From the human T2T-CHM13v2.0 reference genome, Homo sapiens, in the NCBI RefSeq assembly GCF_009914755.1, contig NC_060937.1: a stretch of DNA of 64,000 nucleotides. One strand, written 5' to 3'. The notes below the pieces were generated by a model. The model made no database searches and was not told the origin of the DNA. It saw only the letters and a list, made by a program, of their open reading frames with translations. Position numbers and translations under genes: made by a program. Below are positions 3,922 through 48,113 of this stretch, in pieces (position 1 is the first letter of the stretch; each line of letters opens with the position of its first letter).

Positions 3922-4214
3922 TTAAATATTGACAATGTTTCCCGCTTATTTTTAAAAATAACTGACAACTCATTTCTTGAATAGAGAAATTCTTCTCCCA
4001 AATTAAAAAATAAAAGTCATTAATATGCTACATTTTTTTTCTAGATTTCTAAAGCATCATGTAGAATCAACTCAAAAAAAACAAAAAAAAAGGTGACCAA
4101 AATGAACAACATCTTTCTTGCACTCAACTAAAATTGCCAGTTCTTATATTTTAAAGCTATATTATCATTTTTGAAATTGGCAACTTTAAGCCTGCTCAAA
4201 GATATAAATGTGTG

Positions 4215-4605
4215 TGCTATTCATACAATGAGATACTACTCTGTAATAAAAAGAAATGAATTATTGATATAAGCAACAACATACATGAATCTCAAAATAA
4301 TTAGGCCAAGTGAAATAAACAAGACAAAAAGAGCACATACTGTTTAATTCCATATTTGTAAAATTCTAGAAAATGCAAACTAGTGTTCCGTGACAGAAAG
4401 GTGGTCTGTGGTTGCCTGGGGATGACAGTTGTGAGGAAGGAGAGATCACCAAGGGGTGTGAGGAAACTGTTGCTGTGTTGGACATGGCCATTATCTTAGC
4501 TATGTGATGGTGTCCTGGGTGCTGGCATGTGTTAAAACTTATCAAATTGTACACTTTAAATATGTGCAGTTTATTGTATGTTAATTATACCTCAGCAAAG
4601 TTGAT
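4215..4605 (+). mobile_element. Ancient L1M 3' end
   Basis: CATACAATGAGATACTACTC...ATGAATCTCAAAA...TTAATTATACCTCA. Confidence 0.8.
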
Positions 4606-4689
4606 GTAAAAATTCATTTTACGTTAAACACAATAAAGCCTGTGACATGTCTCTCTTGTAAAATCATAAATGGGAGAAAATTAGGATAT

Positions 4690-4830
4690 GCTGAGCACCT
4701 TCTCTGTCCTAAACAATGCTAAGTGCTTGTGCTAAGTTTTGTCATCTAATCCTCATACCAGCCACATAAAGTAGGTATTATTAGCACTCCATTTAACAAA
4801 GGAGGAAACCTAGACTCAGAGAGATAAGGG
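4690..4830 (-). mobile_element. MIR fragment
   Basis: TAATCCTCA...GTAGGTATTATT...GAGGAAAC core. Confidence 0.7.
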
Positions 4831-5735
4831 TTCCTCAGTGGGGACTCAGGTTTGTATTAGGTCTTATTTCAGATTTGTGCCTTTTCCATAGTAGCAGAGG
4901 CTTCTCTTGAGGTATTTTTGCCTGCTAGGAATCCTAAGTATTATTTATACTTGTTAGTTTGTGACAATATTCTTGCTTATTATGGTTTTTTGCTTAAAAA
5001 TAGGTTACAGTTTAGGCTTTTTATCTTGTAGTGATTTTTTACAGGGGATTAAAGATAGAGATGAAATATATGAATTTGTAATACTGGTTTTTCTTTGTTT
5101 CTGATTGTCATGATCTGCATATTTATGCAAAATTTAAAACTGGGAATAGACACACTTTTTAGAATGGCAAGTAGAACCAAAAAAAAATCTATCCTCTGAA
5201 GAACATAACTTGCCCATACAGTCTTAAAAGTCCAGAATAGTTTAGTTAGCAGCAATCTCCACATAGTTCATTTTGCCACAAAATGGAACTATATGATTTT
5301 CTCTCTAATTTTTAAATTATAAACATGCAACCACAATGAAGAAGAAACAACTTTGAACTTGTCTTCTCTCCATATTAACACTTTCCAGCCTCTCTCCCAC
5401 CTCTCTCTCACAAACCCTGCACTCCGCCCCATCTGTTCTATTCTATCAACCATTTCTCTCTACATATATTCGTTTATTCTGCCATTTGCCTCTGAACTTG
5501 CACTTACGTTACTCTGTCTTCCTGGGAATGAAGTCCACCTTTAAAGTGTCAACATTCTTTAAAGATTTGTTTGAATCCTCCCACTGCCATTGTGTCTTTC
5601 TTGTTCATCCCGACCAAAAACAAACAGCTCACTTTCCCCAGTCTTTGAAATATTTACTTTCTGTACCATTCACTTACCCTTTACAGATCATATACCACAT
5701 TATTAGTCTGCATGCTGCTTTTACTCTTTAATATT

Positions 5736-6292
5736 TGTGTTAGTCAGGGTTCTCTAGAGGGACAGAACTAATAGGAAATGTGTATATATGCAGGGGAGTT
5801 TGTTAAGGAGTATTGACTCACACGATCACAAGGTCAAGCCCCATGATAGGCCGTCTGCAAGCTGAAGGGCAAGGAAGCCAGTCCAAGTCCCAAAACCTCA
5901 AAAGTAGGAAAGCCAACAGCACAGCCTTCAGTCTGTGGCTGAAAGCCTGAAAGCCCCTGGTAAACCACTGGTAAAAGTCCAAGAGTCCAAAAGCTGAAGG
6001 GCTTGGAGTCTGACGTTCAAGGGCAGGAAGCGTCCAGCATGGGAGAAAGATGAAGGCGGGAAGACTCAGGAAGTCAGCTCCTTCCACCTTCTTCTGCCTG
6101 CCTTATCCTAGTCATGCTGGCAGCTGATTGGATGGTGCCCACCCAGATTGAGGGTGGGTCCACCTCTCCTAGTCCACTGACTCAAATGTTAATCTCCTTT
6201 GGCAACACCCTCACGGACACACCCAGGAACAATACTTAGCATCATTCAGTCCAATCAAGTTGACACCCGATCACTCAATATCAACCGCCACA
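5736..6292 (-). mobile_element. MLT2A (HERV-L) solo LTR, probably MLT2A2
   Basis: TGTGTTAGTCAGGGTTCTCTAGAGGGACAGAAC ... CAACCGCCACA; 5-bp TSD ATATT (5731, 6293). Confidence 0.92.
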
Positions 6293-6435
6293 ATATTTTA
6301 AATTGTTGGAAGGTTAGAGTCCCATGATATACCTCTGTATCTCTCAAAATGCCTAGTTGAGTGCTTTCCATTTAAATGGTCAATACATATTTGGTGTCTA
6401 ACTGAATAAGTAAATAGTTTGCAAATCTCTGGAAG

Positions 6436-6921
6436 TGATGCAGGGTAGGCAAGCCTCCGAATTGGTGCTTAGCTTGGGAAGGTTCTTGATTTTGCCCAGG
6501 AAAGAATTCAAGGGTGAGCCTGTGGTGTTAGACAGCAACTTTTATTGAAGTGCCAGAGCACAGCAACAACAGGGATACTGGTCTTTGTGGAGCAGGGCTA
6601 CTCCATAGACAGTGTGCCCAGAGGAACAGCTCAGAGGCAGTTCTGCAGTCAGATTTATACCCACTTGTAATTATACACAAATTAAGGAAGAGATTATGCA
6701 GAAATTTCTAGAAAAAGGTGATAACTTCCAGGTTGCCCAGTTGTTACCATGGAAAGGGTCCATAACCTCCAGGTGCTGCCATGGTAATGGAAACTGACAT
6801 TGCGCACTGGTGGATGTATATTTTGGAAACTTGCTTCTGCCCTGTCCCTACTTTAGCTAGTTCTCAATTTGGTCCAGTGTCCAAGACCTGCCTCCAGAGT
6901 CGAGTCCTGCCTCCTACCTCA
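6436..6921 (-). mobile_element. ERV1 solo LTR (MER66-like)
   Basis: Minus strand starts TGAGGTAGGAGGCAGGACTCGACTC; TG..CA ends; 4-bp TSD GAAG. Confidence 0.8.
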
Positions 6922-7073
6922 GAAGTGCCAAGAAATGTTAGAGAAAGCAGAGACCAGCTATATAGAACTCACTAGGGTAACATAGTTGGAGGTCTGGAGT
7001 GTGCTAACCCCACTTCATGTAAGCTGGTGGGAACTAGTGCTTTATCCTTTTTGGGTGTCAAAATATATGCATA

Positions 7074-7430
<357 letters not shown>

Positions 7431-7431
7431 A

Positions 7432-7665
7432 TAGCATTAAAACATTAGAAGATCAATGGTGACTGAACTATATATTCATCAACTAGTGTGAAGTCTGGGA
7501 TTTTTACTTCAAAGTAAGCCAGTAGGGGGCTGAGAGAGAATATTGATGAAACAAAACTAGTCATGTGTTGATATTTATTGAAATGGGAGATGGATAAAGG
7601 GTATTTTATTATACTAGTCTCTATGATTTGGTCTTTATTTGAATGTTCCAATAATATTTTTAAAA
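7432..7665 (+). mobile_element. Ancient L1M 3'-end fragment
   Basis: GGGATTT..TTCAAA...GATGAAACAA...TTTGAATGTTCCAATAATA; distantly similar to 25480-25675. Confidence 0.55.
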
Positions 7666-7927
7666 GATTTTTCATTAAAGCATTAAGATATGTACAATGA
7701 AGAACAAAATATTCTCACTTATACAAGTCAATTATTGTAACACATATGTTGCTCCAAAACCTTATTTGATAAGAGATGACACAAAGGTCCATGTTTGAAA
7801 GGAATCTGTTTCCATGCTTCATTGCCCTTTAAAGCCACCATTGAAAGAGTGGAGCCCTGCACTGATCCTATGCTACTATTGCATAATAATACTGAGCATT
7901 TCTTTATTTGTTTAAAAAATGTATTGA

Positions 7928-8228
<301 letters not shown>

Positions 8229-8460
8229 CTAGATACCACATGAGGAGGTGTAGTGCCTGCCTGCAAGACACTGCCAGTCCGGCAGGAAAGTCAAACTACA
8301 AGTGCCATTAAAACCTTAGGTTTTTCCCATCTCCATAAAAGCACAACCTCAAGCCAAAATTTGGGAAGCATCCTTGATTCTTTCCTTCAGTTCATATAGC
8401 CAATGTATTATCAAGTCCTGTCAACTGCTTCCCCTAAAATCTCCCGCTTTCTTCTTCTAG

Positions 8461-8848
<388 letters not shown>

Positions 8849-9126
8849 GGTCTTTTCTTCCGCTTTTGTATTTCTATCATTCATCTTCAAAATACATCAG
8901 ATAATGTTCCTCCCCATTGCCTAAAAGTCTCTGATAGGTTCCCATGGCATTCAGGATGGGACTTACAGGATCTTTCCTCTGTGATCCGAACTCATATCAC
9001 TCTCCTCATTTGCTCCACTACAGACTGACTGGCTTACCTAGAAAAATGACATGCACTACGCTAAGAGGCATTCCAGACTGGCTAGGAAAAAACATCTGCC
9101 AATTACACTATATGTTACATATTGTC

Positions 9127-9241
9127 TTTCTAAGGAAATATACCAGTCCATGTAAGGATAATGTCTACTACAGTAACGAGATACATGCACTGGTATATTT
9201 CCTTAGAAATATGCTATCTCATTAATGTAGTAGACATTATC
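9127..9241. repeat. Interleaved inverted repeats A-B-A'-B'
   Basis: 9127-9154 is the reverse complement of 9182-9209 (27/28); 9157-9183 is the reverse complement of 9215-9241 (25/27). Confidence 0.92.
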
Positions 9242-9338
9242 AAAAAAGTGAAAATTATATATACCTATATATATGAATAAATATAATAATATGATGTGAT
9301 GGGACTCTAACCTTCCAATCACTTATTGTATGATTCCA

Positions 9339-9621
9339 GAGTCCCCACTGAGGAACTCTTATCTCTCCGAGCCTAGGTTTTCTCATTTGTTAAATGCAGT
9401 TCTAATAATGCCTACTTCATGTGGCTGGTATGAGGATTAGTTGACAAAACTTACCACAAGCACTTAGCATTGTTTAGGACAGAGCAGTCTTAAACAGTGC
9501 TCAGTATATCCTAATTTTCTCTCATTTATGATTTACAAGAGATACATATTACAGGTTTTATTTTTTAATGTAAAATGAATGTTTTAAATCAACTTTGCTG
9601 AGGTATAATTAACATACAATA
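9339..9621 (-). repeat. Inverted duplication of 4572-4847
   Basis: About 90% identity by manual alignment, spanning L1M end, spacer and MIR. Confidence 0.93.
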
Positions 9622-9672
9622 TGCTATGACGGGACTCTAACTCTCCAGTAATTTAAAATATTAGAGTAAAAC

Positions 9673-9887
9673 TTGAAACATTCAAATACAGACAAAACTT
9701 TAGAGACTAGTGTAATAAAATACCCTGCATCCCTCTCCTATTTCAATAAATATCAACATATGACTAGTTTAGTTTCAATATTCTCTCTCAGCCCCCTACT
9801 GGCTTATTTTGAGGTAAATCCCAGACTTCACACTATTTGATGGACGTATAGTTCAGTAACCATTGACCTTCCAATATTTTAATGCTA
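9673..9887 (-). repeat. Inverted duplication of 7432-7651
   Basis: For example CTCTCTCAGCCCCCTACTGGCTTA is the reverse complement of TAAGCCAGTAGGGGGCTGAGAGAG; colinear over about 215 bp. Confidence 0.92.
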
Positions 9888-10342
9888 AGCTCCTAGACAG
9901 TAATTAGAAAGTATTTCAGACTTACATCCTCAATATTACACCCATGAAATGAATGTGCTTACTATTTATTTGTATTTCATTGTATCTTACTGAACTTTAA
10001 TGTATTTGTATACTAACATCCATAAAAGTTTAAAGATTGAAGTTAAAAAAACAGTAAATATAGACTAAACCCCAACAAAACAAGGAAACTAACTTAGAAA
10101 AATACCATAACTTTATGTTATTAGTTGCTATTTATAAATTGCTTTCCAAGCACAAAAAGCAACATGAATACAAAGTACTTTAAGAGTCAGAATAGGGCTT
10201 CTGTGAAATCAAAAGTCTTTAAAGCCCCAAAGAAATTTAAGATAATCCCAATTCAGAAGGGAAACACATACTTGGCATTCTTCCTGACCAGTGGTCTACA
10301 TAATATCAAATAAAAATCAATATTTTATCAAGGATATAACTT

Positions 10343-10886
10343 GTGTGTGGAAGGCAATTTTTTCACTGACTGGGACCACAGTGGGGGTTGAGGGGGTGGG
10401 GATGATTTGGGGAGGATTCAAAAACATTACATTTATTGTTAACTTTATTTCTATTATTATTACATCCTAATAATAGGATGTAATCCATCTCTCTCATTGT
10501 AATATATAATAAAATAATTATACAGCTCACCATAATGTAGAACCAATGGGAGACCTGAGTTTGTTTCCCTGCAACTAGATGGTCCCGTCTGGGGGTGACG
10601 GGAGACAGTGACAGGTCATCAGGCATTAGATTCTCATAAGGAGGGCACAACCTAGAAACCCTTGCATGCACAATTCAGAGTAGGGTTTGCACTCCTATGA
10701 GAATCTAATGCTGCAGCTGATCTGACAGGAGGCAGAGCTCAGGTAGTAATACAAGAGATGGGGAGTGGCTGTAAATACAGATGAAGCTTTGCTCACTTGC
10801 CCACCATTCACTTCCTGCTGTGTGACGCAGTTCCTAACAGGCCATGGACTGGTATTTGTCCATGGTCCAGGGGTTGGGGACCTCTG
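10343..10886 (+). mobile_element. MER1A (hAT-Charlie)
   Basis: GCATTAGATTCTCATAAGGAG...CTCCTATGAGAATCTAATGC internal inverted repeat; terminal GGTTGGGGACCTCTG. Confidence 0.9.
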
Positions 10887-13227: not shown

Positions 13228-14536
<1,309 letters not shown>

Positions 14537-28675: not shown

Positions 28676-29163
28676 AAAACATTTGTTTTTAAAATGTTTC
28701 TGACTTTCAAAAAACTCTCCAAGAAATTAGGAAATTATGTAAATATGCAAAACATATCCACAATATTTAGCCCTCAAACTTAAAAAAAAATGCTTTGTTG
28801 GCATAAACTCATTAGAAAACAAATAAGAGTTAATGTTTTAAAGAAGAACAACATAGATTATAAAGTAATTTCCAGCCCTGAAAATTTTCTTGTGCTACAT
28901 GAAGATATTGTGGAAATGGCTGGGCCTTGCTAATTCCCTGACAAAGAGCTGAGAATCTGATCCTCCAGAGGGACAGAATTCCCATTATCACTTGAAATTG
29001 AGACTAAATGAGGTAATAGATATGCTATACCTTTGCATTTTATTAATGCCTATACAAATATAAGGTACCATCATTGATAGTACTAAAAGTCAAATTACCA
29101 AAAACATTTGTTTCTAAAATATTTTTGACTTTCAAAAAACACTCCAAGAAATCAGAAAATTAT
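28676..29163 (+). repeat. 63-bp dispersed direct repeat (28676-28738 and 29101-29163)
   Basis: 57/63 identical, ungapped. Confidence 0.9.
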
Positions 29164-43381: not shown

Positions 43382-44670
43382 ACGCTTCCTCTTCTTACAA
43401 AAATACTAATCCTATCATGAAAGTCCTACCCTCAAGACTCTACCTTAATTACCTCCCAAAAGCCCCACCTCCAAATACCATCACATTGTGGGTTGGAGCT
43501 TCAACATATAAATTTGGGAAGGAGGGACACGAACACTCAGTCCATAACAATGGATTGAGAAAAATTTAGAGTGAAAGTAAGGACTAGAACCTAGACCTGC
43601 TGAAATCCTGGCCAGCCATCTTTTCAAATGAAATTATTGGTTGATTCTAACTTACATTATTTGACTTCTAAAATTAATTGTGCAATTTTTAAAAACATAG
43701 TTGAAATAATGCTAAGGATTAGAAAACCAGCAGAGAAGGAAAATGAGATTGACAATTTCCTACAGTTCTGTATCATTATACTTATAAAAGTTTTCCTATG
43801 TCATTTGATGCCTGTCTCATATCATTTCACTATGTTCTTTTTTAATAATCAGCCTTAATGCACCTGAACAGAATGTATTAAAGATGTTCAATGAAAAATT
43901 TTTCTTGCTGCTAAATAAATCCATTTTGGGTGCTCTTTGGGTTGTTATTTCTTCAGACACAATCAGTTGAGTGCTTGATGAAATCCTTTCTGCCTCAGAC
44001 TGTGATGACTTCTAACATTTTGTTTATATATTTAGCAGCAAAAGGAATCAAGAGCTGCCAAGTATTATTAAAGTAGAACCAACTACAGCAGGAATTCTAT
44101 CATGAGGGCAGCATCACTAATGAAGTAAAGCAGTGAGATAGAAAATTCTAACCATAACTCCAGTTTCTAACTCCTCATGATATGGGGACATTGATTCTCT
44201 TACTGTTTTTCAATTTAAACAATGGAGATAACCAACTTGTATTAAGGATTCTCAAATAATGCTTCAGTATGCATATAATAATTATAAAATGCTTGCTTTT
44301 TAAGGAAAAACAGTATAACTATCGGAAAAATATTTATGGTCTTAAAAAAAAAAACCTAAAAAAATAACAAAAAACCCTGCCACATCACATTTCTTTCCTC
44401 TTCTCTCTCTCCTTTTTTTTTTTTTTTTTTTTTTTGAGACAGTGTTTTGCTCTGTTGCTCAGGCTGGAGTGCAGTGGCACTATCTCAGGTCACTCTGTCT
44501 CCCGGGTTCAAGCAATTCTCCTGCCTCAACCTCCTGAGTAGCTGGGATTACAGGCACCCACTGCCACACCAGACTAGCTTTTGTATTTTTCTATAAAAAT
44601 AAAAATTCACCATTTTGGCCAGGCTGGTCTTGAACTCCTGGCCTCAAGAGAACCACCTGCCTTGGCCTCC

Positions 44671-47131
<2,461 letters not shown>

Positions 47132-48113
47132 CCATCAGAGTGAACAGGCAACCTACAGAATGGGAGAAAATTTTCACAATCTACCCATCTGACAAAGGGC
47201 TAATATCCAGAATCTACAAAGAACTTAAACAAATTTACAAGAAAAAAATCAAACAATCCCATCAAAAAGTGGGCAAAGTATATGAACAGACTCTTCTCAA
47301 AAGAAGACATTTATGCAGCCAACAGACACATGAAAAAATGCTCATCATCACTGGTCATCACAGAAATGCAAATCAAAACCACAATGAGATACCATCTCAT
47401 ACCAGTTAGAATGGCGATCATTAAAAAGTCTGGAAACAATGGGTGCTGGAGCGGATGTGGAGAAATAGGAACACTTTTACACTGTTGGTGGGACTGTAAA
47501 CTAGTTCAACCATTATGGAAGACAGTGTGGTGATTCCTCAAGGATCTAGAACTAGAAATAACATTTGACCCAGCCATCTCATTACCAGGTATATACCCAA
47601 AGGATTATAAATCATGCTGCTATAAAGACACATGCACACATATGTTTATTGCGGCACTAGTCACAATAGCAAAGACTTGGAACCAACCCAAATGTTCATC
47701 AATGATAGACTGGATTAAGAAAATATGGCACATATACACCATGGAAAACTATGCACCCATTAAAAAGGATGAGTTCATGTCCTTTGTAGGGACACGGATG
47801 AAACTGGAAACCATCATTCTGAGCAAACTATCGCAAGGCCAGAAAATCAAAGACCGCATGTTCTCACTCATAGGGGAGAATTGAACAATGAGAATACTTG
47901 GACACAGGGTGGGGAACATCACACACTGGGGCCTGTCATGGGGTGGGGGGAGGGGGGAGGGATAACATTAGGAGATATACCTAACGTAAATGACGAGTTG
48001 ATGGGTGCAGCACACCAACATGGCACATGTATACCTATGTAACAAACCTGGCACGTTGTGCACATGTACCCTAGAACTTAAAGTATAACAAAAAATAAAT
48101 AAAAAATAAAAAG
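47132..48113 (+). mobile_element. Forward 3' segment of the same L1PA (L1PA5/6-like)
   Basis: ORF2 C-terminus, G-rich 3'UTR, ACTTAAAGTATAA plus A-tail; 17-bp exact flank repeat ACCACCTGCCTTGGCCT (44652, 48117). Confidence 0.96.

What the first reader, a model, noticed from the sequence alone, without database searches (positions are those of the whole stretch)
9291..9887. 600-bp patchwork built from inverted copies of three separate upstream loci
Seen in the sequence, in order: 9299-9318 is the exact reverse complement of 6306-6325; 9339-9621 is the reverse complement of 4572-4847 (about 90%); 9625-9671 returns to the 6298-6329 locus; 9673-9887 is the reverse complement of 7432-7651. All pieces are inverted. 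The donors lie 2-5 kb upstream and are visited out of order (6.3, 4.8, 6.3, 7.6 kb). The first long copy crosses an L1M/spacer/MIR boundary, so it is not an independent TE insertion. The last two donors share TAAAATATTA-like microhomology near the switch point. Inference: a fixed, ancient serial template-switching event (FoSTeS/MMBIR or polymerase-theta templated insertion). RepeatMasker would probably label it only as MIR/L1 scraps.
Basis: partly seen in the sequence, partly recalled or inferred. Interest (0 to 1): 0.8.

Follow-up and report, generated by a model that had tools for sequence, protein, structure and literature searches.

The report
Ancient mosaic of inverted nearby copies
About 600 bases in an intron of human STARD13 are stitched together from backwards copies of three stretches lying 2-5 kb upstream, which is most simply the fossil of a DNA-copying machine that jumped between templates tens of millions of years ago; this kind of mutation is already known.

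Summary

**The patch.** Window 9294-9890 is a gap-free chain of inverted copies:
- B'' 9294-9321 copies 6303-6328.
- A' 9336-9621 copies 4572-4850 (92% identity).
- B' 9625-9671 copies 6329-6298 and continues at 5735-5719.
- C' 9673-9890 copies 7429-7651 (89%).

**What rules out simpler origins.** These stretches have no other long match in the 3.1-Gb genome. Each piece is inverted but their order is collinear, which excludes one inverted duplication with deletions.

**Direction of copying.** An old L1-like repeat runs through the 4572 break point in the donor. In the patch it is cut off at that point, so the upstream loci are the originals.

**Relative age.** B' reads straight across a 557-bp LTR-like repeat (5736-6292) that now splits its donor, so the event probably predates that insertion. 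Divergence is 46 of 494 sites, which I infer to mean roughly 30-55 million years.

**Additional findings.** B'' and B' form a 34-nt direct duplication around A'. About 50 nt to the left, 9127-9241 carries an interleaved double inverted repeat, the signature of a short template switch.

**Verdict.** This is serial template switching of the MMBIR/FoSTeS type, in one or two rounds. It is a new example of a known kind. No outgroup genomes were available.

The parts
9294..9321 (+). B'': short inverted copy of donor 6303-6328. It is also the first member of a ~34-nt direct duplication (9288-9321 / 9618-9651) that flanks A'.
   Evidence: 20 of 20 exact. The 20-mer occurs only twice in the genome. Alignment. 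Direct repeat D5 (38 nt, 79%).
9319..9335 (+). 17-nt junction filler between B'' and A'. It holds a 10-nt direct-orientation match to donor 4571-4580, the far break point of donor A.
   Evidence: Only suggestive: 465 of 20000 shuffles and 25 of 689 natural 17-mers reach a 10-nt match in the break-point zones.
9336..9621 (+). A': inverted copy of 4572-4850, spanning old repeat, unique spacer and the last 40 nt of an L1-3'-end-like repeat.
   Evidence: 22 mismatches in 276 aligned nt plus 4 indel events.
9622..9624 (+). 3-nt filler (TGC) at the A'-to-B' junction. With its flanks it forms a 10-mer found only twice in the window, here and at the a'/b' junction (9208-9217).
9625..9671 (+). B': inverted copy of donor 6329-6298 that continues into 5735-5719, so it reads across the site where the LTR-like repeat now sits.
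   Evidence: With the repeat and one target duplication removed, the alignment lengthens to 43 columns at 86%. 42 of 49 nt match, including 9 of 9 beyond the insertion site.
9673..9890 (+). C': inverted copy of 7429-7651.
   Evidence: 24 mismatches in 218 aligned nt plus 2 indel events.
4572..4850 (+). Donor A, in its original context. The L1-3'-end-like repeat runs through the 4572 break point.
   Evidence: All 10 other family copies align to the donor from 4213-4347 through 4584-4612. Only 5 of 10 align to the patch, and only at 9590-9621/9625. Family hits.
5719..5735 (+). Left half of donor B, now separated from the right half by the LTR-like repeat.
5736..6292 (+). 557-bp LTR-like interspersed repeat (TG...CA ends, 5-bp target duplication ATATT at 5731-5735 and 6293-6297). 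It was inserted into donor B, most likely after the copying.
   Evidence: Read. In 9 of 11 other copies homology starts at 5735-5740. 5310 first-look candidates in the genome.
6298..6329 (+). Right half of donor B. It was used twice, for B'' and for B'.
7429..7651 (+). Donor C. Its left end abuts the Alu target duplication and a (TA)n tract at 7358-7428.
9127..9241 (.). Interleaved double inverted repeat a b a' b': a 9127-9154, b 9157-9183, a' 9182-9209 (27 of 28 complementary), b' 9215-9241 (25 of 27). It is the footprint of a short-range template switch about 50 nt left of the patch.
   Evidence: (I1, I2). As single-stranded DNA it folds at -29 kcal/mol, z -7.1, and 0 of 200 shuffles fold as well. 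It matches the '3-1-4-2' event type, which creates two inverted repeats (PMC5453318, passages).
9242..9293 (.). A+T-rich stretch between b' and the patch, probably the original target-site flank. It has a low-complexity resemblance to the (TA)n tract at 7358-7428.
   Evidence: (I15, I21-I25). The left flank 8856-9295 has no other match in the genome.

Best explanation
Window 9294-9890 is the fixed scar of a replication- or repair-coupled serial template switch, of the kind called FoSTeS/MMBIR or a 'templated insertion' string.

Proposed path (inferred):
1. A growing 3' end moving rightwards left its template in an A+T-rich, hairpin-prone stretch.
2. It re-primed on single-stranded DNA of the same region 2-5 kb behind it.
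3. It copied that DNA backwards, released, and re-primed again several times. The order was donor B, then donor A, then back to the start of B with a 4-nt AATA overlap (re-copying about 34 nt), then donor C.
4. It then resumed at 9891.

This leaves four inverted pieces of 28, 286, 47 and 218 nt, joined by 0-17 nt of filler. The B''-A'-B' nesting may equally be a second round at the same site.

What is shown: the anatomy, the uniqueness of the donors, the direction of copying for piece A, and the fact that B' reads across the later LTR-like insertion.

What is inferred: the mechanism, its single-event nature, the direction of synthesis, and the age (about 30-55 million years, from 9.3% divergence and recalled primate substitution rates).

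A by-product is two long inverted-repeat pairs in the STARD13 intron. In the pre-mRNA these could pair as double-stranded RNA.
For: **The donors are local and unique.** The only long genome-wide matches to the patch are the local donors (8 matches, of which 2 are long donors and 5 are 54 nt or shorter). Searching back from the donors finds only the patch plus old repeat families at 69-83% identity. The B 20-mer occurs just twice in 3.1 Gb.

**The geometry needs several switches.** Each piece is inverted while their order is collinear: 4.8 kb, 6.3 kb, 7.6 kb. One inverted duplication followed by deletions would give the opposite order.

**The direction of copying is shown for piece A.** All 10 other copies of the L1-3'-end-like family align through donor position 4572. 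In the patch they stop at 9621/9625.

**B' preserves the site without the LTR-like repeat.** This includes 9 of 9 nt beyond the insertion site.

**The pieces have similar divergence.** A is 22/276, C is 24/218 and B' is 7/49.

**B'' and B' look like one duplicated junction.** Both start at the same donor nucleotide and share the 6 nt (AATATG) immediately upstream, which the donor lacks (D5, 15, 27). This is what a return upstream of the exit point would produce.

**A second template-switch footprint lies about 50 nt away.** It spans 9127-9241, and a 10-mer is shared only by one junction of each structure.

**The patch stands out in its surroundings.** In the 64-kb window, the A and C pairs are the only long (over 200 nt), >85%-identical low-copy pairs lying within 5 kb of each other.

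[quoted passage not shown] Strings of 2-7 templates within one locus, and local n-jumps, are described in cancers (PMC7025897, passages).
Against: - No outgroup genome could be examined. The empty ancestral site, the single-event claim and the date are therefore all untested.
- Junction microhomology is weak or unreadable after about 9% divergence. There are 4 nt (AATA) at the A'-to-B' junction, but 0-1 nt at B'-to-C' and at C'-to-flank.
- B'' and B' differ at 8 of 38 positions (D5). That is more than the 9% seen in the long pieces, which is awkward for a duplication made at the same time unless the synthesis was error-prone.
- Clock evidence does not confirm that the LTR-like repeat is younger. 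Against its 10 best relatives it differs at 9.4-11.5% of non-CpG sites, with transversions 2.1-3.9%. The patch shows 9.3% overall and 3.8% transversions.
- Direction of copying for piece C rests on one weak family match that crosses 7651 by 15 nt.
- The filler match to the donor A break point is only suggestive.
Confidence: 0.7

Rival explanations
1. Several independent templated insertions or small inverted duplications accumulated at one fragile, A+T-rich, hairpin-prone site over a long period, rather than forming as one chain.
For: - The B''-A'-B' nesting looks like an insertion of A' into an already existing B.
- B''/B' differ by 8 of 38 positions, compared with 8-11% in the long pieces.
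- A separate small template-switch footprint lies at 9127-9241.
- A' and C' divergences differ nominally, 8.0% vs 11.0%.
Against: - The pieces abut with 0-17 nt of filler, are all inverted, and all come from one 3-kb stretch on one side.
- The difference between A' and C' is within error (3.0 +/- 2.6%).
- No other such pair exists elsewhere in the 64-kb window.
Confidence: 0.17
2. RNA-templated repair or a reverse-transcriptase template-jumping product. The + strand of the patch has the sense of the STARD13 pre-mRNA (the gene is on the minus strand), so intronic RNA could have been copied piecewise into a break.
For: All pieces have the same orientation and all donors lie in the same intron of one transcribed gene (hub annotation). 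The order of the pieces is free in such a model.
Against: - Neither end of the patch has a poly(A) tail, a target-site duplication or a TT/AAAA-like nick site (read).
- The junctions carry short direct and inverted DNA-type fillers.
- A DNA-level short template-switch footprint sits next to the patch.
- Orientation equally fits a DNA strand constraint.
Confidence: 0.06
3. One large inverted segmental duplication of 4572-7651 that was later reshuffled by deletions and inversions. Alternatively, a low-copy composite repeat family.
For: Inverted orientation and proximity of the two loci.
Against: - The order of the pieces is collinear, not reversed, so at least three further inversions would be needed.
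- No inverted homology exists between 7652-9290 and 4851-7428 other than Alus.
- No third copy exists anywhere in the genome.
Confidence: 0.04

Closest known systems
FoSTeS / MMBIR complex rearrangements and germline 'MMB-TI' templated insertions (Osia et al. 2021, PMC8421209, passages read; FoSTeS and MMBIR papers recalled)
   Same: The insertion is made of inverted copies of nearby sequence, several templates are strung together, junctions are short or microhomologous, and there are no transposon hallmarks. Germline examples with up to five templates are reported.
   Different: The published screen looked only for templates within 100 bp and for inserts no longer than a sequencing read. Here the pieces reach 286 nt, the templates lie 2-5 kb away, and the event is ancient and fixed rather than polymorphic or disease-causing.
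Cycles/bridges of templated insertions and local n-jumps in cancer genomes (Li et al. 2020, PMC7025897, passages read)
   Same: 2-7 templates are copied and strung together within one locus, returning to the host chromosome. Local templates give clustered, often inverted junctions.
   Different: Those events are somatic, the segments are usually kilobases or longer and often come from other chromosomes, and they were detected through copy-number gain. This one is germline, sub-kilobase and entirely local.
Short template-switch mutations, four-point model (Loytynoja and Goldman 2017, PMC5453318, passages read)
   Same: The small structure at 9127-9241 has the layout of the '3-1-4-2' type, in which one switch-and-return creates two inverted repeats. 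The insertion of A' with a return upstream of the exit point is also describable by four points.
   Different: That model covers one switch-and-return over tens of bases. The main patch needs at least two or three consecutive switches over kilobases.
Polymerase-theta mediated end joining with templated inserts
   Same: Short fillers templated from the immediate neighbourhood of the junctions (9319-9335 and 9622-9624) resemble its products.
   Different: By recall its inserts are typically a few to a few tens of nt, templated close to the break. The 286- and 218-nt pieces from 2-5 kb away do not fit. Osia et al. also set their events apart from it.

Membership tests
Replication/repair-based serial templated insertion (FoSTeS/MMBIR type) | The inserted DNA is a copy of sequence present elsewhere nearby and is not a dispersed repeat. 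| tested here: met
   The only long matches in 3.1 Gb are the local donors.
Replication/repair-based serial templated insertion (FoSTeS/MMBIR type) | Two or more templates are joined head to tail in one insertion, in an order that a single duplication cannot give. | tested here: met
   There are four inverted pieces in collinear order, with 0-17 nt between them.
Replication/repair-based serial templated insertion (FoSTeS/MMBIR type) | Microhomology of a few nt at each switch point. | tested here: inconclusive
   There are 4 nt (AATA) at the A'-to-B' junction and 0-1 nt at B'-to-C' and at the right end. About 9% later divergence blurs the junctions.
Replication/repair-based serial templated insertion (FoSTeS/MMBIR type) | An ancestral allele without the insertion (empty site), and all pieces arriving together. 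| not testable with these tools
   No primate genomes are held. Only indirect polarity is available, from repeat continuity and the LTR-free state of B'.
Polymerase-theta end-joining templated insert | A short insert templated within a short distance of the break (sizes recalled). | tested here: not met
   The pieces are 286 and 218 nt, from 4.5 and 2.0 kb away. Only the 3- and 17-nt fillers would fit.
Retrotransposition / L1-mediated chimeric retrocopy | A poly(A) tail at the 3' end, a flanking target-site duplication, and a T-rich nick site. | tested here: not met
   The flank sequences read show none of these at 9288-9297 or 9890-9900.
Single inverted segmental duplication | Copy and source are anti-collinear over their whole length. 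| tested here: not met
   The pieces are anti-collinear internally, but their order is collinear.
Interspersed repeat family | Further copies elsewhere in the genome at comparable identity. | tested here: not met
   Other matches are 40-54 nt to the patch, or 41-283 nt at 69-90% identity to the donors, and lie only in the old-repeat parts.
Short template-switch mutation, type 3-1-4-2 (for 9127-9241 only) | Two interleaved inverted repeats, explicable as the reverse complement of one contiguous stretch inserted within that stretch. | tested here: met
   (I1 27/28, I2 25/27; b and a' overlap by 2 nt, so b+a' is one contiguous 53-nt block). Type description from PMC5453318. The ancestral state was not tested.

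The most novel reading that the evidence does not exclude
All of 9127-9890 records one germline break-induced-replication episode with seven or more template switches. There is a short-range 3-1-4-2 switch at 9127-9241. Then come four fold-backs onto the long single-stranded tail 2-5 kb behind the growing end, with error-prone synthesis explaining the excess differences in the re-copied 34 nt. If so, it would be one of the oldest and most switch-rich fixed MMBIR scars described at base resolution. It would also give a natural measure of how far behind the growing end single-stranded template was available in the primate germline.
Probability: 0.3. Interest if true: 0.5.

Novelty: new member of a known kind. 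Interest (0 to 1): 0.38.

Why it matters
It is a clean, base-resolved germline example of a multi-template inverted insertion that became fixed. It carries an internal relative date, because a later LTR-like insertion splits one donor. It also has a built-in polarity marker, a repeat cut off in the copy but whole in the donor.

Such fossils show that the copy-and-paste processes catalogued in cancers and genomic disorders also shaped neutral primate DNA. They also show that standard repeat annotation would miss them. Sub-kilobase pieces taken from kilobases away fall between the size ranges covered by the published screens I read passages of.

The event also created two long intronic inverted-repeat pairs in STARD13. 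Predicted RNA duplexes pair 257 and 200 positions. These are candidate non-Alu double-stranded RNA and editing substrates. No function is shown, and none is needed to explain the structure.

Tried and rejected
- **One inverted duplication plus deletions.** Rejected on the order of the pieces.
- **A kilobase-scale version of the 3-1-4-2 single switch** (ancestral A...C' with the reverse complement inserted between). Rejected because 7652-9290 shows no inverted homology to 4851-7428 other than Alus.
- **An inversion with staggered breaks.** Rejected because the donors were not adjacent. The intervening 4851-5735 reads as old, non-inserted sequence (by eye), and 6298-6430 has no family hits.
- **A repeat-family origin.** Rejected.
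- **A target-site repeat split by the patch, to define the empty site.** Both flanks are unique in the genome, so this gave nothing.
- **Dating the LTR-like repeat against the patch by pairwise divergence.** Inconclusive, as the values are similar.
- **A 21-nt direct similarity** between 4856-4876 and 9903-9923 (D9). At chance level for 9-nt seeds, so dropped.
- **Resemblance of 9256-9297 to the (TA)n tract** beside donor C. Low complexity, so left open.
- **The filler match at the donor A break point.** Only suggestive.
- **Rfam.** Nothing reached a gathering score in 4000-10600. Sub-threshold hits are Alu-derived or plain hairpins.

Full report
**1. The observation.**

- 9336-9621 with 4850-4572: 87.9% over 289 columns, E 7e-101.
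- 9673-9890 with 7651-7429: 87.0% over 223 columns, E 9e-74.
- 9625-9662 with 6329-6292: 84% over 38 nt.
- 9299-9318 with 6325-6306: 20 of 20.

With gaps set aside, the long pieces differ from their donors at 22 of 276 sites (A) and 24 of 218 sites (C).

**2. Not a repeat family and not chance.**

The window's own assembly (3.1 Gb) is searchable.
- A search with 9291-9890 gave 8 matches: itself, the two local donors, and five matches of 40-54 nt.
- Searching back from the donors with their flanks found the patch again, plus only old, 69-83%-identical family members for part of donor A (40 of 1570 candidates scored). Donor C gave two weak matches.
- The 20-mer shared by 9299-9318 and 6306-6325 occurs exactly twice in the genome, at these two places. 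With up to 2 mismatches there are 26 sites, 11 of them in one tandem array, against 6 for the reversed control.
- In a self-comparison of the whole 64-kb window, the A and C pairs are the only long (over 200 nt), low-copy pairs above 85% identity lying within 5 kb of each other.

**3. Geometry.**

Reading rightwards, the patch visits donor coordinates 6328 to 6303, then 4850 to 4572, then 6329 to 6298 continuing at 5735 to 5719, then 7651 to 7429. Each piece is inverted, but the long pieces keep the donors' left-to-right order.

A single inverted duplication of 4572-7651, however much was later deleted, would place the 7.6-kb piece first and the 4.8-kb piece last.

I also tried two one-step schemes that can produce 'individually inverted but collinear' pairs:
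- A kilobase-scale version of the 3-1-4-2 template switch.
- An inversion with staggered breaks.

Both require either inverted homology between 7652-9290 and 4851-7428, or adjacency of the donors. Neither is seen.

**4. Direction of copying.**

Donor A begins inside an old L1-3'-end-like repeat (name recalled).
- All 10 other genomic copies that I fetched align to the donor from 4213-4347 through to 4584-4612, so they run straight across the break point at 4572.
- Only 5 of the 10 align to the patch, and only over 9590-9621/9625, stopping at the junction.

The patch therefore holds a truncated copy and the upstream locus is the original.

Donor A then continues through 129 nt that matched nothing else, into an old dispersed repeat at 4742-4827 (6 matches at 76-90%; MIR-like by recall).

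For piece C the only polarity evidence is one weak family match that crosses 7651 by 15 nt.

**5. A later insertion splits donor B.**

Positions 5736-6292 are a 557-bp interspersed repeat with TG...CA ends and a 5-bp target duplication, ATATT.
- In 9 of 11 other copies homology begins at 5735-5740.
- The family has at least 5310 first-look candidates in the genome.

In the patch, the B' piece does not stop at the repeat. After the bases matching 6329-6298 come 9 nt (9663-9671) that match, 9 of 9, the reverse complement of the sequence on the far side of the repeat. Only a 2-nt gap in an A run intervenes.

The simplest reading is that the copy was made before this repeat was inserted. The alternative is that the polymerase happened to jump across the repeat using its 5-bp duplication. 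I rate that at about 15%.

Clock evidence neither confirms nor contradicts the order:
- The repeat differs from its 10 best relatives at 9.4-11.5% of non-CpG sites, with transversions 2.1-3.9%.
- The patch differs from its donors at 46 of 494 sites, with transversions 19 of 494.

The TAAAATATTA-like similarity between donors B and C lies 9-10 nt before the real B'-to-C' junction, and at that junction the overlap is 0-1 nt.

**6. Fine structure of the junctions.**

- B'' and B' start at the same donor nucleotide and share the 6 nt (AATATG) just upstream, which the donor lacks. Thus 9288-9321 and 9618-9651 are a direct duplication (79% over 38 nt, D5) that brackets A'. This is what results if synthesis leaves B, copies donor A down to 4572, and returns about 34 nt upstream of its exit point. 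The shared AATA (the end of A' and the start of the duplicated stretch) would serve as microhomology.
- The 17-nt filler before A' contains a 10-nt direct-orientation match to 4571-4580, the far break point of donor A. This is only suggestive: 465 of 20000 shuffles and 25 of 689 natural 17-mers do as well.
- The 10-mer spanning the A'/B' junction occurs only once more in the window, at 9208-9217, which is itself a junction.

**7. A second footprint next door.**

About 50 nt left of the patch, 9127-9241 reads a, b, a', b'. Here a' is complementary to a (27 of 28), b' is complementary to b (25 of 27), and b and a' overlap by 2 nt.
- The stretch is unique in the genome.
- It folds far better than shuffles as single-stranded DNA: -29 kcal/mol, z -7.1, 0 of 200 shuffles.
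- Because b+a' is one contiguous block equal to the reverse complement of a+b', a single switch-and-return inside an ancestral a+b' explains it. This is the '3-1-4-2' type of Loytynoja and Goldman, described as creating two inverted repeats (PMC5453318, passages).

Whether it belongs to the same episode as the patch or marks a recurrently unstable site is open. Its divergence, 3 of 55, is not significantly lower than the patch's.

**8. Mechanism.**

The best-supported reading is serial template switching during replication or break repair.

All four pieces are inverted, and all donors lie within 5 kb on one side. A 3' end growing rightwards that folds back onto single-stranded DNA behind it would give exactly that. 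That single-stranded DNA could be the lagging-strand template, or the long nascent tail that break-induced replication leaves. The existence of such tails is established knowledge, recalled rather than tested here.

- **Shown:** templated origin, polarity for A, multiple switches, and relative order with the LTR-like insertion.
- **Inferred:** the enzyme pathway, one round versus two, the direction of synthesis, and the age.

From 9.3% pairwise divergence (4.7% per copy) and recalled primate substitution rates, I estimate roughly 30-55 million years.

**9. Rivals.**

- **Several separate insertions at a fragile site (0.17).** This is favoured by the nesting of A' and by 8 of 38 differences between B'' and B'. 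It is disfavoured by the tight abutment, the uniform orientation and the single source region.
- **RNA-templated repair (0.06).** It is conceivable because the patch's + strand has the sense of the STARD13 pre-mRNA. However, there is no A-tail, target duplication or nick-site motif.
- **A reshuffled large inverted duplication or a low-copy repeat (0.04).** This is contradicted by the order of the pieces and by copy number.

**10. Comparison with what is known.**

- Germline inverted templated insertions from up to five templates are reported. The screen behind them required templates within 100 bp and inserts no longer than a read (PMC8421209, passages).
- Cancers show 2-7 templates strung together within one locus, and local n-jumps, at larger scales (PMC7025897, passages).
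- Short single switches are catalogued between human and chimpanzee (PMC5453318).

This locus works like these and meets the testable defining features. The microhomology criterion is inconclusive and the empty site is untestable here. It is therefore a new member of a known kind, unusual mainly for its piece size (up to 286 nt), template distance (2-5 kb), number of switches and age. My three literature searches were not designed to exclude a prior description of this locus.

**11. Consequence.**

The event left inverted-repeat pairs of 280 nt (4.5 kb apart) and 220 nt (2.0 kb apart) inside one STARD13 intron. As RNA, the arms are predicted to pair over 257 and 200 positions, at -389 and -288 kcal/mol. 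Shuffled partners give means of -80 and -61. Whether they pair or are edited in cells is untested. Rfam finds no known RNA here.

Noticed in passing
window 9127-9241: Interleaved double inverted repeat a b a' b' (28- and 27-nt arms, 96% and 93% complementary). It is unique in the genome and folds strongly as single-stranded DNA.
   Followed up: yes
window 5736-6292: 557-bp LTR-like repeat with a 5-bp target duplication, ATATT. It belongs to a high-copy family (5310 first-look candidates; the best full-length relatives are 85-88% identical). The family name was not determined.
   Followed up: partly
window 6430-6930: A second repeat begins at about 6430 (five genome matches to 6430-6479 at 87-89%). 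By eye it looks like another LTR on the minus strand. Its age relative to the patch is unknown.
   Followed up: no
window 7060-7436: An S-type Alu (subfamily by recall), on the + strand, with target duplication AAAATATATGCATAG. Its tail and second duplication copy have grown into a (TA)n/(TATG)n tract at 7358-7428. Donor C ends exactly at this boundary. Whether the Alu was present at the time of the event cannot be told.
   Followed up: partly
window 28676-28738 and 29101-29163: A 63-nt direct repeat, 90% identical, 363 nt apart, low-copy within the window.
   Followed up: no
window 10459-10484: A 26-nt palindrome, 92% self-complementary.
   Followed up: no
window 13261-14498 vs 44670-48096: Long pairs of 989 nt at 86% (inverted) and 277 nt at 93% (direct), 30-33 kb apart. 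They lie in stretches masked as repeats, so they are presumably L1 fragments.
   Followed up: no
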